This document shows, one piece after another, positions 13,496 through 16,400 of a stretch of DNA of 64,000 bases (position 1 is the stretch's first letter; the number at the start of each line of letters is the position of its first letter). The stretch is from contig NW_024704749.1 of assembly GCF_018977255.1 (NCBI RefSeq), positions 12,896,001-12,960,000 of the forward strand, read 5' to 3'. The stretch comes from Callorhinchus milii (Eukaryota). Made by a program: the position numbers.

Positions 13496-16400
13496 CTAGA
13501 AAGAAACAACTTTTTGAACAATTTTTCAATTGGTGCATCACTATATATCCCTAAAATTTAAAATAAACATGCAGAATATATAAAGATACGGAATAGATAC
13601 CCCTGCACGGCCTTCCCTTCATACCTCTCTCATTAGAATTTGGCTCCTACGATTCTTACATGTCATACCTATAGCCTTTCATGAGGGGATGCCCCTTGTG
13701 ATATCATATAATCCTTGCATTTGATATAGCGCCTTATCACGTCTTCAAGACATCTCAAAGCGCTTCACAGAATATTTCGCAAAGTGAATTGACTATATTT
13801 TGTGGGTGAAATGCGGCAGTGTTCCACAAACAACAACAACAACAACAAGATTCCATTTATAGAGCGCCTTTCACGTCAGGAGGACGTCCCAAGGCGCTGC
13901 ACAGTTGGGTCATGACCCGAGCAGGGGGGAAATGGTCAGGGTGAGGGGAGGGAAGGGAGGGAGAGAGGAGGGGGAAATGGTCAGGGTGAGGGGAGGGAAG
14001 GGAGGGAGCGAGGAGGAGGAAGAGAGTCGAGAGGGGAGCTGAAGGCACGGTCAAAGAGAAAGGTTTTGAGACCGGCCTTGAAGGAGGAAAGGGAGGAAGC
14101 AAGGCGAAGGCACTGGGGGATGGAGTTCCAGAGCCTCGGGGCTGAGAGGCTGAAGGCCCGACCACCGATAGTAGGGCGGTTGGGGCGGGGGACGTGGAGC
14201 AGACCGGAGCCAGAGGAACGGAGGGTACGGGCAGGTAGGTATATTTTTTTTGTACAGTGTTTTCTATGCAGCAGTTGTGCTATAGCGGCTGTGTAGTGAA
14301 TGCTTATGTAAATCTCTTCTATTGCGAGTCGGAAGGAGATTAATTTCACATGCAGAAAAGGCTTGTATGTTGAGTTAAATGATTGACAGAACTGGCAGCA
14401 GGCTATTTTTGAATATATGTGAGCTGAAGTTAAACAGATCAACTCTGAATGAACTTTACACTGTACACAAAATGTACAAACAATTGTGGATTGACCAAAT
14501 CATTATTTTTCCAGGGATTATTACTCCCAGAAAAGCGATCCACTAATCAACTAACAACCGAATTCCTAATTACTGCTAGGTAAACAGAGGCGTGTGTAGT
14601 AAGGAAACTTGCCCAACGTTTCTTTCCTGCCTGGGAATCGAATCCAGGTCTTCTTGTTTGCGAGGTAAGTGCTCTAACCCTTCTGCTCATAAAGTAGTTG
14701 AAAATCACGTGAAAAATTAAACAGTACAAGTACTTTTTTATGTGGGTCTTGGCATCTCTAGAAGCATAATCTCTAATCCTACATCTTATTACAAACAGAT
14801 TGAAGTAACCTTTAGTAGTTGAGCAGGTTCATTGCTCCTTGTGGATGTCTTGGTGGGCATTAAAAGTGTTACACTTTTTTCAGTTGGAAAGTGAAATAAA
14901 CATTAAAAACGTTAGTCATAATAAAGGTCAAACTCACTTTTAGATGGCATAATTTTTTTCTGTCCACTGATAAACACTGCTGATCCTTTGCCTGCCTAAC
15001 ACTGATGTCATTGTACGTGCCTTGATTCATAAACATTACAAATTCTATAAACAGCGGACAGAAAGCAGCTTTCAGTTCAATTGAGGTGTTGTTGAATCGG
15101 AAGGCCCTTTGTCCAAATGTTTTTATTGTGTGGTGGGAATATGGTCTTAATATAGTCTCAGCTGATTTAAATCTGAAAAAATGATGAAAGCCCCTGAATT
15201 CAAGTCAGGAAACCAGACTGCTGCCAAAAATGTCTTGAAAGCAAGTTCATTCAGAGTTGATCTGTTTAACTTCAGCTCACATATATTCAAAAATAGCCTG
15301 CTGCCAGTTCTGTCAATCATTTAACTCAACATACAAGCCTTTTCTGCATGTGAAATTAATCTCCTTCCGACTCGCAATAGAAGAGATTTACATAAGCATT
15401 CACTACACAGCCGCTATAGCACAACTGCTGCACAGAAAACACTGTACACAAATTAGTTTGGCAAATGCAAAGAAGTTCTGAATGAAAAAAAACACCCCAA
15501 TTCTTTTGATGTACGAATCTACGAATCAAACTGAAATGCACTTCCAATTGTGGAAAATAAATCAAACAAAAATAGATGGACCCGAGCCAAACTATTGTGA
15601 GGGATCGCTATGGCTATCTTGTCTCTCTCTCCCCAATCCACACTAACTGCTACATTGCACACATTTTATCATCATGTCTCCAATTTACTGAGTCTACAAC
15701 AATTTACACATCCAGAGTCCAACAGAATGGGATGGCAGTGTAACCTCATGTTGGCTTATGAACAGCAGGAATCAAAGAAACAGTGCTGTTGAGAGGTGCA
15801 CACATTAAACTCATATTGACTTGTGTCTGCCTCCACCACCTGCTCCAATTTGATGGCAGCACGTTATATATCCTGGGCACGTTGAAAACCAAAGAGCCTT
15901 TATCCAATTGCTACATGACTGAATGGTAGTGGAAGTAGGAAAAAAAACCAAGAGCAAATCATCTTATCTCAAACACAATTCTCAACATCTACTGCAGTAT
16001 ATGAGGCAGAGGTCACTGCTAGGTTTCTGCCCCCCCCCTACTCTGGCTGTGATCAACAGAAATTAGCCTATTTTTCTCTCAATTGCGATCTGACCTGATG
16101 TAAATCTACAACATTGACATTTATTAACAGCCATTATTATGTGGTTAAGAGGCACTGTCTTTTAAGGTTTCCTTTGTTGGCACTTAATACAGAGCCGACA
16201 ATCCCAATTAAATGGAAACGCCCATTATGCATAAAGCAAACAATGCAGATAATAGCGAATCTGGACTTGGCACAACTCAATGAAACTGCAGGAACGTCTT
16301 AAAGAAAATCTTATTTTCATCTCAGATTTGGAATACCACAGGGTATTGCGGTTTACTAGCCTGAGACCCTGAATGGGCCACATATCATCAACCAACCTAC

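What the first reader, a model, noticed from the sequence alone, without database searches (positions are those of the whole stretch)
13826..15452. Composite L2 insertion that captured an inverted 206-bp copy of neighbouring intron DNA
Seen: an older SINE is split, with acaaacaa duplicated at 13826-13833 and 14476-14483 (an apparent target-site duplication). Between the two lie a young 5'-truncated L2 (13834-14240), a short A/T linker, a 206-bp reverse-complement copy (14251-14456, one mismatch) of non-repeat sequence at 15243-15448, and a 14-nt direct copy (14458-14471 = 15439-15452) of the end of that same donor. Inference: this was one event, in which the 5' junction of the retrotransposition was completed by repeated template switching onto DNA or RNA about 0.8-1 kb away. 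It leaves a 206-bp stem with a loop of about 786 nt in the SPECC1L pre-mRNA, about 0.75 kb upstream of CH exon 13. That stem is a potential ADAR substrate or splicing modulator.
Basis: partly seen in the sequence, partly recalled or inferred. Interest (0 to 1): 0.7.

Follow-up and report, generated by a model that had tools for sequence, protein, structure and literature searches.

The report
L2 insertion carrying inverted neighbour DNA
A young L2 retrotransposon in an intron of the elephant shark SPECC1L gene was sealed at its 5' end with an inverted 206-210-base copy of DNA from about 1 kb away, a large natural example of a known way in which such insertions are completed.

Summary
An old SINE is split. 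Its halves overlap by ACAAACAA when aligned to five intact copies. Between them lie:
- a 5'-truncated young L2 (13834-14241);
- a T-rich filler;
- a 206-210-nt inverted copy of 15243-15452 (2 mismatches);
- one T;
- a perfect 14-nt direct copy of the same donor end;
- 4 nt of filler.

The window is Callorhinchus milii SPECC1L (cytospin-A), transcribed from the minus strand. It is not human.

The best reading is one retrotransposition event whose 5' end was completed after at least two template switches onto both strands of nearby DNA. The sense pre-mRNA alone cannot have templated both patches. Both patches share the boundary 15452|15453, which suggests a physical DNA discontinuity there.

This kind of event is known: flank-templated 5' extra nucleotides in zebrafish L2, and locally templated or inverted duplications with human L1. 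This case is unusually long and distant, so it is a new member of a known kind.

The predicted 210-bp intronic RNA stem folds in silico. Editing and splicing effects are untested. An assembly error or a dispersed repeat could not be excluded with these tools.

The parts
13700..13833 (-). Left half of an old tRNA-derived SINE. On the + strand this half holds the 3' tail side of the element. It ends in ACAAACAA.
   Evidence: Aligns to five intact SINE copies in the window and ends at the shared ACAAACA(A/G). Identity to other copies is 82-89%.
13826..13833 (.). Left copy of the target-site duplication ACAAACAA. The effective length is 4-8 nt because ACAA overlaps the (CAA)n tail.
13834..14241 (-). 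Young 5'-truncated L2-type LINE 3' end. Its sense strand is the minus strand, and the (CAA)5 tail lies at 13834-13848. It contains a 45-nt internal tandem duplication at 13925-14014.
   Evidence: Zero substitutions and 2 indels over 408 nt against copy 11777-12431, which continues a further 190 nt (about 247 nt shorter than the longer copy). 92-96% identity to three other copies. D1.
14242..14246 (.). Filler 1, T-rich. It is 5 nt if the copy starts at 14247, or 9 nt (14242-14250) if the copy starts at 14251.
   Evidence: It matches neither the continuation of the L2 nor the donor flank.
14247..14456 (.). Inverted (reverse-complement) copy of 15243-15452, with 2 mismatches at 14250 and 14266.
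14457..14457 (.). Filler 2, a single T.
   Evidence: Mismatches both possible template continuations (and direct reading).
14458..14471 (.). Perfect 14-nt direct copy of 15439-15452, the same donor end at which the inverted copy starts.
   Evidence: D7. Only two occurrences in the window.
14472..14475 (.). Filler 3, ATGT. Together with the first three bases of the right duplication it recreates TGTACA, which is also present at donor 15443-15448.
   Evidence: Direct reading.
14476..14483 (.). Right copy of the target-site duplication ACAAACAA.
14484..14690 (-). Right half of the old SINE, the decayed tRNA-like head side.
   Evidence: Aligns to intact copies. ARAGORN and Rfam find no tRNA, so the head is decayed.
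15243..15452 (.). Donor segment, single-copy within the window. Its right boundary 15452|15453 is shared by both patches and reads ...CACAAA|TTAG.
13379..13495 (-). SPECC1L (cytospin-A) exon encoding part of the CH domain, the 13th coding piece in the window. AG acceptor at 13497-13496 and GT donor at 13378-13377.
   Evidence: Pfam CH, E=1e-8. tblastn with the C. milii cytospin-A protein. Translation and splice sites.

Best explanation
One target-primed reverse transcription event of a young L2 LINE hit an old SINE in intron 12 of elephant shark SPECC1L.

Shown:
- The plus-strand 3' end ...ACAAACAA primed on the (UUG)n tail of the L2 RNA.
- About 408 nt of L2 were copied.
- The same insertion, bounded by one target-site duplication, also holds an inverted 206-210-nt patch and a direct 14-nt patch. 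Both come from one donor 0.76-0.97 kb away, on the side of the break that was not extended by reverse transcription. The patches are separated by 5-9, 1 and 4 nt of filler.

Inferred, favoured path: the nascent first strand kept growing and switched template three times.
1. It first switched to the plus strand of the donor, starting at or within four bases of 15452. A run of added T may have paired with the A-rich end ...CACAAA, which would explain the mismatch at 14250 as present from the start.
2. It then switched to the minus strand and copied 15439 to 15452, stopping at the same boundary.
3. It finally switched to the 3' overhang of the target, which gives the right-hand duplication.

The shared boundary is best explained by a physical discontinuity at 15452|15453. 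One possibility is a second L2 endonuclease nick on the plus strand. That would supply a free 3' end as acceptor for the first jump, and the far edge of a single-stranded gap as the stop for the second.

Consequence, computed only: the pre-mRNA carries a near-perfect 210-bp duplex closing a 786-nt loop, 752 nt upstream of the CH exon.

The confidence of 0.45 is for this first-strand path. Single-event local templating by any path is about 0.8.
For: Single event:
- The SINE halves overlap by exactly ACAAACAA against five intact copies.
- The ages agree. The L2 shows 0 substitutions in 408 nt against its sibling, and the arms differ at 1-2 of 206-210 positions.

Local templating:
- The arms match at E=1e-104, the 14-mer is exact, and neither occurs elsewhere in the 64-kb window.

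Opposite polarity of the patches and the shared boundary 15452 come from direct reading.

Every junction has filler instead of microhomology. This fits non-templated addition followed by end-to-end template jumping, the route favoured for zebrafish L2 5' joining (PMC2666801, discussion passage).

Precedent:
- About 40-50% of ZfL2-2 copies have 5' extra nucleotides, and a large fraction of these are templated from flanking sequence (PMC4245944 and PMC4760211, passages).

The boundary resembles the family's priming ends:
- 8 of 11 (CAA)n-tailed L2 copies in the window have a tail-side flank ending in AA.
- AAA|TT occurs at only 0.27% of window positions.

The two youngest L2 copies lie 2 kb apart, consistent with several cuts at this locus at one time.
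Against: - This is a single locus. The order of the switches and the polymerase involved cannot be read from the end product.
- The proposed discontinuity at 15452|15453 left no visible scar. The motif argument is post hoc and weak: AA-ending flanks are partly an alignment ambiguity with the CAA tail, and about 10% of positions end in AA by composition.
- A 969-nt plus-strand segment would have to be displaced, which is not known behaviour of L2.
- None of the four other young L2 copies in the window has a locally templated filler longer than chance. Their longest local matches are 9-10 nt, and the null distribution has its mode at 9-10 nt.
- Published L2 extra nucleotides are described as 'several' nucleotides, far shorter than this.
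- The same laboratory later suggested a host DNA polymerase. The L1 study attributes locally templated sequence to processing of the reciprocal end.
Confidence: 0.45

Rival explanations
1. This is the same single insertion event, but host DNA-repair synthesis made the filler at the reciprocal end. That end's 5' strand was resected by about 1 kb. The long minus-strand 3' tail then snapped back on itself and was extended from 15243 to the single-strand/double-strand border at 15452, for example by polymerase theta or delta. It was then joined to the L2 cDNA.
For: - The donor lies on the reciprocal-end side. Snap-back on a resected tail gives the observed inverted orientation, and it gives a natural stop at 15452 (reading).
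- The L1 cell-model study assigns locally templated sequence and inverted duplications to processing of the reciprocal end.
- The Okada-lab review suggests a DNA polymerase for L2 extra nucleotides.
- The abstract of PMC4912351 says polymerase theta alternates non-templated, in-cis and in-trans extension (listing only).
Against: - In this order of synthesis the 14-nt patch lies between the target duplication and the 210-nt patch. It would need a plus-sense template at 15439-15452, the very strand that resection would have removed.
- No microhomology is seen at any switch point, whereas annealing-primed repair synthesis normally leaves some.
- A 210-nt patch taken about 0.8-1 kb from the break is much larger and more distant than typical templated insertions (established knowledge, not tested here).
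Confidence: 0.28
2. There were two or more independent events at one site. An inverted local duplication entered the SINE, and an L2 inserted beside it before or after.
For: The part of the target-site duplication that can be assigned unambiguously is only 4-8 nt and low in complexity. Its power to tie both parts to one event is therefore limited.
Against: - The two insertions would have to share one breakpoint to the base inside a SINE, with no second duplication or deletion.
- Both parts are equally young.
- The filler lies exactly where L2 5' extra nucleotides are known to arise.
Confidence: 0.06
3. Assembly or read artefact. A chimeric or mis-joined read placed an inverted piece of nearby sequence at the L2 5' junction.
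For: Inverted chimeras occur in some library types (established knowledge). No reads could be inspected. The window holds one N at 16723, but it is 1.3 kb away.
Against: - The structure is fine-grained: three fillers, a 14-nt second patch, and a clean return to the target duplication. This looks like repair products, not a chimera.
- The arms differ at two positions, as expected of two real loci.
Confidence: 0.05
4. The 206 nt belong to a dispersed repeat. One candidate is the end of a Tc1/mariner-like element, since the arms begin TA|CAGTG. The two arms would then be independent copies, or the terminal inverted repeats of one transposon.
For: The outer ends of both arms read TA followed by CAGTG, as Tc1-type termini do. 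The motif is recalled and was seen.
Against: - There is no other copy in the 64-kb window.
- 99% identity between two independent copies would require a very young family.
- The right half of the split SINE lies between the arms, so the arms cannot be the two ends of one inserted transposon.
- The 14-nt second patch is not explained.
Confidence: 0.04

Closest known systems
5' extra nucleotides of L2-clade LINEs (zebrafish ZfL2-1 and ZfL2-2; Okada laboratory)
   Same: Extra sequence lies between a 5'-truncated L2 and a short target-site duplication, and it is templated from DNA flanking the junction. The mechanism discussed is template jump or annealing-mediated joining (PMC4245944, PMC4760211 and PMC2666801, passages).
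   Different: The published cases are described as 'several' nucleotides templated from sequence flanking the junction. Here the filler is 206-210 nt plus 14 nt, taken from 0.76-0.97 kb away, uses both strands of one donor, and shows no junctional microhomology. The primary analysis (Kajikawa et al. 2012, Gene) is not held in the library, so the published length range was not seen.
Non-canonical human L1 insertions with locally templated sequence, and inverted duplications of the target
   Same: [quoted passage not shown] Inverted duplications are attributed to processing of endonuclease-made ends (PMC11702581, sections 7 and 13).
   Different: Those are somatic events in an L1 over-expression cell model. 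This is a fixed or segregating germline insertion of an L2 in a cartilaginous fish. Supplementary figures S9 and S10 of that preprint, which show the structures, could not be seen.
Twin priming (5' inversion of L1)
   Same: An inverted segment lies at the 5' side of a truncated LINE within one target-site duplication.
   Different: In twin priming the inverted segment is LINE sequence copied from the LINE RNA. Here it is host DNA. 5' inversions were reported as nearly confined to L1 in human cells (PMC4245944, passage).
Polymerase-theta-mediated end joining with templated (snap-back) insertions
   Same: Several rounds of copy, release and re-anneal give inverted and direct patches of flanking DNA mixed with non-templated bases (PMC4912351, abstract in the listing only).
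   Different: The patch length and the distance to the template are far greater here, and no microhomology is seen at the switch points.
Reverse-transcriptase template-switch chimeras and class 1 templated sequence insertion polymorphisms
   Same: A LINE reverse transcriptase joins a second template to a truncated LINE copy in one insertion (PMC5110952, abstract in the listing; U6-L1 chimeras as cited).
   Different: Those second templates are RNAs from distant loci. Here the donor is local, and the polarity of the two patches rules out the host sense RNA as sole template.
Inverted Alu pairs in primate introns as ADAR substrates
   Same: Two inverted copies within about 1 kb in one transcript form a long intramolecular duplex. 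ADAR editing at inverted Alus is mentioned in PMC11702581, section 7.
   Different: Here the duplex is one near-perfect 210-bp pair of unique sequence. Editing was not tested.

Membership tests
L2-clade LINE insertion made by target-primed reverse transcription | A 3' end with a short microsatellite tail, abutting the target. | tested here: met
   A (CAA)5 tail lies at 13834-13848 and is shared with the other copies.
L2-clade LINE insertion made by target-primed reverse transcription | A short target-site duplication. The published L2 clade peak is 3-5 bp (PMC4245944). | tested here: met
   A 4-8 nt duplication was verified against five intact SINE copies.
L2-clade LINE insertion made by target-primed reverse transcription | 5' truncation relative to longer copies. 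| tested here: met
   Copies 11777-12431 and 44403-about 45185 continue beyond the point where this copy stops.
L2-clade LINE insertion made by target-primed reverse transcription | Assignment to the L2 clade by reverse-transcriptase or endonuclease phylogeny, or by a match to a curated consensus such as L2-2_CM. | not testable with these tools
   - No copy in the window reaches the RT or EN domains.
- Pfam finds nothing in the C-terminal reading frames of the longer copies.
- No repeat library was available.
- The L2 label rests on recalled resemblance of the ORF2 C-terminus, and on the paper reporting that C. milii SINEs share their tail with L2-2_CM (PMC5499810, passages).
L2 5' extra nucleotides templated from flanking DNA | Extra bases between the truncated LINE 5' end and the target duplication. 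| tested here: met
   14242-14475, 234 nt.
L2 5' extra nucleotides templated from flanking DNA | The extra bases match sequence flanking the junction. | tested here: met
   224 of the 234 nt (210 + 14) match one donor at 15243-15452.
L2 5' extra nucleotides templated from flanking DNA | Short length ('several nucleotides'), with synthesis primed by annealing at the junction. | tested here: not met
   The patches are 210 and 14 nt long, and no microhomology is present at any switch point.
Twin-primed 5' inversion | The inverted segment is LINE sequence contiguous with the truncated part. | tested here: not met
   The inverted segment is single-copy intron DNA, not L2.
DNA transposon with terminal inverted repeats | The two arms are the ends of one inserted unit, flanked by its own target duplication. 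| tested here: not met
   The right half of the split SINE lies between the arms, and its left half lies outside them.
ADAR-edited intramolecular dsRNA | A long duplex in one transcript. | tested here: met
   Both arms lie in intron 12 of one gene. The minimum-free-energy fold pairs the arms completely at -547.8 kcal/mol for 1241 nt. The arm-arm duplex energy is -385 kcal/mol. These are predictions only.
ADAR-edited intramolecular dsRNA | Clustered A-to-G mismatches in RNA reads over both arms. | not testable with these tools
   No RNA-seq data were available.

The most novel reading that the evidence does not exclude
The locus may be a fossil of several simultaneous L2 endonuclease cuts in one 4-kb neighbourhood. 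Two sibling L2 copies with zero substitutions between them sit 2 kb apart. A third, abortive nick may have occurred at 15452|15453. Its free 3' end would have served as acceptor for an end-to-end jump of the L2 reverse transcriptase onto DNA, and its gap edge would have stopped the next patch. If so, it would be natural in-vivo evidence that an L2 reverse transcriptase jumps onto genomic DNA 3' ends while an insertion is being completed. It would also show that clustered nicking by one burst of LINE activity can create long inverted duplications, and hence long intronic dsRNA, in the germline.
Probability: 0.15. Interest if true: 0.6.

Novelty: new member of a known kind. Interest (0 to 1): 0.4.

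Why it matters
How the 5' end of a LINE copy is joined to the chromosome is the least understood step of retrotransposition. Most evidence comes from reporter assays in cultured cells. This locus is a clean natural end product in a slowly evolving vertebrate genome: nearly undecayed, bounded by a verifiable empty site, with every switch point readable to the base. It shows that L2 5' fillers can reach hundreds of bases and draw on both strands of DNA about 1 kb away. It also gives a concrete search pattern for a genome-wide survey: an inverted local patch, a short direct patch and a shared boundary. As a side effect, one such event creates a perfect 210-bp intramolecular RNA duplex in a conserved gene. 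This is a route to long double-stranded RNA that needs only one transposon insertion, not two.

Tried and rejected
- Tc1/mariner-type transposon whose ends are the two arms. The arms begin TA|CAGTG, a recalled motif. Rejected because the right half of the split SINE lies between the arms.
- Sense pre-mRNA as the only template. Rejected by polarity. The gene is on the minus strand and the two patches have opposite orientation.
- Hairpin opening (palindromic addition) and rolling-circle copying. Rejected because the 14-mer sits at the wrong end of the 210-mer, or in the wrong orientation (reading).
- tRNA or Rfam match for the SINE head or anything else in 13000-16000. None found.
- Pfam on the reading frames of the longer L2 copies. 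No family found.
- Scan of the 5' flanks of the four other young L2 copies for local templates. Nothing above the chance length of 9-10 nt. This is therefore 1 of 5 copies in the window, and fillers shorter than 8 nt could not be assessed.
- Possible local templates for the short fillers. TATATTTT occurs at 13794-13801 and AAAATGT at 15227-15233. Both are too short to separate from chance and were left open.
- Nick-site motif at the donor boundary. Suggestive only.
- The primary paper on L2 5' extra nucleotides (PubMed 22405943) is not held.
- Whether such a long, locally templated inverted filler at a germline L2 insertion is already in print. Searches found none. This covers only the held open-access library.
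Full report
**What is in the sequence**

I read 13500-15800 and ran repeat detection on 13000-16500. The strongest feature is an inverted repeat with arms 14247-14456 and 15243-15452. It is 210 nt long, 99% complementary, with 786 nt between the arms. BLAST of each arm against the whole 64-kb window finds only the partner arm (E about 1e-104) and no third copy. 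The arms differ at two positions. At 14250 the copy has T where G is expected, and at 14266 it has A where G is expected.

One T follows the inverted copy. Then 14458-14471 repeats 15439-15452 exactly and in direct orientation (family D7). This 14-mer occurs at only these two places in the window. It matches the donor 14 of 14, but matches the reverse complement of the inverted copy's own start only 13 of 14.

**The L2**

13834-14241 begins with a (CAA)5 run and matches four other places in the window, all in the same orientation:
- 11777-12431: 0 substitutions and 2 indels over 408 nt;
- 44403 to about 45185: 96% identity;
- 57943-58357: 95% identity;
- 49788-50260: 92% identity.

The longer copies continue past the point where this one stops, so it is a 5'-truncated copy ending at 14241. 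On the minus strand the longer copies carry an open frame that I recall as typical of the C-terminus of L2-type ORF2. Pfam has no model for it, no copy in the window reaches the reverse-transcriptase domain, and no repeat library was available. The L2 label is therefore plausible but not formally tested. A paper on C. milii SINEs reports that they share their 3' tail with the LINE L2-2_CM (PMC5499810, passages). This fits the roughly 55-nt similarity between the L2 3' end and many SINE copies in the window.

**The empty site**

I aligned the two flanks, kept as separate sequences, with five intact copies of the same SINE from elsewhere in the window. The left flank ends, and the right flank begins, on the same ACAAACA(A/G) of the SINE. 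Everything from 13834 to 14475 is therefore inserted material bounded by one target-site duplication. The last four bases of the left copy cannot be separated from the (CAA)n tail, so the duplication is 4-8 nt. That agrees with the 3-5-bp peak reported for the L2 clade (PMC4245944, passage). ARAGORN and Rfam find nothing in 13000-16000, so the tRNA-like head of this SINE has decayed.

**Gene and organism**

The large open frame at 41087-42766 on the minus strand is 100% identical to cytospin-A isoform X1 of Callorhinchus milii, with sharks and rays next at 84-90%. The window is therefore elephant shark, not human. I searched that single exon only, scanned other exons one by one in Pfam, and joined no exons. 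Local tblastn of the named C. milii protein against the window places 15 coding pieces on the minus strand, from 46682 down to 6482.

The CH-domain exon is 13379-13495 (Pfam CH, E=1e-8; AG and GT splice sites). The finding lies in the 12.7-kb intron upstream of that exon:
- the L2 tail is 339 nt upstream of the exon;
- the proximal arm is 752 nt upstream;
- the L2 is in sense orientation relative to the gene.

**What the polarity says**

The sense strand of the L2 is the minus strand, so the first-strand cDNA is the plus strand of the window, growing from 13834 rightwards.
- If the filler continues that strand, the 210-nt patch needs a template with plus-strand sequence, and the 14-nt patch needs one with minus-strand sequence.
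- If instead the filler was added to the 3' end of the other side of the break (the reciprocal end), the requirements swap.

Either way, both polarities of one donor were used. The SPECC1L pre-mRNA has minus-strand sequence, so it could have templated at most one patch. At least one template was DNA, an antisense RNA or the nascent strand.

**The junctions**

None of the switch points shows microhomology. Identity simply stops, and 5-9, 1 and 4 nt of unmatched bases intervene (and reading). Read along the plus strand, the inverted patch starts at donor position 15452 (or 15448) and the direct patch ends at 15452. Two independent switches are unlikely to share a boundary to the base. I therefore infer a physical discontinuity at 15452|15453.

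That site reads ...CACAAA|TTAG. Of the 11 (CAA)n-tailed L2 copies in the window, 8 have a tail-side flank ending in AA. AAA|TT occurs at 0.27% of window positions, and NAA|TT at 0.83%. This is suggestive of a second endonuclease nick but weak, because the tail itself makes flank ends look A-rich.

**Favoured mechanism and its main rival**

I favour continued growth of the first strand with three switches: L2 RNA, then the plus strand ending at 15452, then the minus strand from 15439 to 15452, then the target overhang. Three things support this.
- It explains both boundaries with one nick or gap.
- It explains the mismatch at 14250 as a run of added T pairing over an A-rich end.
- It fits filler at every junction.

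The zebrafish L2 literature favours template jumping for 5' joining (PMC2666801, discussion passage). It reports that 40-50% of ZfL2-2 copies carry 5' extra nucleotides, largely templated from flanking sequence (PMC4245944 and PMC4760211, passages).

The main rival keeps the single event but assigns the filler to host repair synthesis on a resected reciprocal end (snap-back). A human L1 cell-model study interprets its three insertions with locally templated sequence, and its inverted duplications, in this way (PMC11702581, sections 7 and 13). That rival explains the inverted patch and its stop well. It has difficulty with the 14-nt patch, whose template strand would already have been resected. 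I put single-event local templating as a whole at about 0.8. Within that, about 0.45 goes to the first-strand path and 0.28 to the reciprocal-end path. The remainder is for other single-event routes, such as capture of a free fragment.

**Other rivals**

- Two independent events at one breakpoint are unlikely, given the clean empty site and the matching youth of both parts.
- A Tc1-like transposon is excluded, because half of the SINE lies between the arms.
- An assembly artefact, or a dispersed repeat, could not be tested. No reads and no eukaryotic DNA collection were available, and the absence of further copies was checked only within 64 kb.

**How common is it?**

The 5' flanks of the four other young L2 copies in the window show no local match longer than 9-10 nt. 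That is the mode of a null distribution from 300 random positions. This case is therefore 1 of 5 in the window. A genome-wide survey was not possible.

**Consequence for the RNA**

Folding 14230-15470 of the minus strand as RNA gives a minimum-free-energy structure of -547.8 kcal/mol in which the arms pair along their whole length (no shuffles were run at this length). The arm-arm duplex alone is -385 kcal/mol. The 786-nt loop contains no exon, and the CH exon lies outside the stem, so a direct effect on exon choice is not expected. Long near-perfect duplexes are classical ADAR substrates (established knowledge; editing at inverted Alus is mentioned), but editing here is untested.

**Comparison and novelty**

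The class is known: flank-templated 5' extra nucleotides in L2-clade LINEs, and locally templated or inverted-duplication outcomes of L1. This case differs in four ways:
- scale (224 templated nt);
- distance (0.76-0.97 kb);
- use of both strands of one donor, with a shared boundary;
- being a near-pristine germline example in a holocephalan.

My searches of the held open-access library found no description of such a long local inverted filler at a germline L2 insertion. The key primary paper on L2 extra nucleotides is not held, and the supplementary figures of the L1 preprint could not be seen. I file the finding as a new member of a known kind, with interest 0.4.

Noticed in passing
window 11777-12431 and 13834-14241: The two youngest L2 copies in the window show 0 substitutions between them over 408 nt. 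They lie only 2 kb apart in the same orientation, in the introns on either side of the CH exon. They have different truncation points and different flanks. This may reflect near-simultaneous insertions at one locus.
   Followed up: partly
window 11777-12431, 13834-14241, 44403-45185, 49788-50260, 57943-58357: All five young L2 copies are in sense orientation relative to the minus-strand genes that host them. By recall, intronic LINEs are usually biased toward antisense orientation.
   Followed up: no
window 14241 and 58357: Two of the five young L2 copies are truncated within 7 nt of the same position in the element, inside a G-rich stretch (GGTAGGTAGGGGG on the + strand). This may be a pause or break hotspot.
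   Followed up: no
window 57943-58357 and 58402-58404: One L2 copy ends about 45 nt downstream of the GT donor of a RhoGAP-domain exon.
   Followed up: partly
window 55422-59745 (minus strand): Three exon-sized frames match the Pfam RhoGAP domain. By recall they look like the C-terminal part of BCR or ABR. They lie directly upstream of SPECC1L on the same strand, which by recall is reminiscent of the human 22q11 neighbourhood.
   Followed up: partly
window 13925-14014: The L2 3' region contains a 45-nt tandem duplication (2 copies, 98% identical). It is also present in the sibling copy at 11777-12431, so it is a feature of the source element.
   Followed up: partly
window 47934-49774: A long, compositionally biased, low-complexity stretch gives many overlapping open frames on both strands (proline-, glycine- and histidine/threonine-rich). 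It is probably simple-repeat DNA and not coding sequence.
   Followed up: no
window 2780-4587 (+ strand): Fragments of another LINE. There is a weak endonuclease/reverse-transcriptase-type Pfam match below the curated cut-off (E=6e-4). By recall, a downstream frame has a CR1-like C-terminal motif.
   Followed up: no
window 16723: A single N in otherwise complete sequence. It was left as it is.
   Followed up: no
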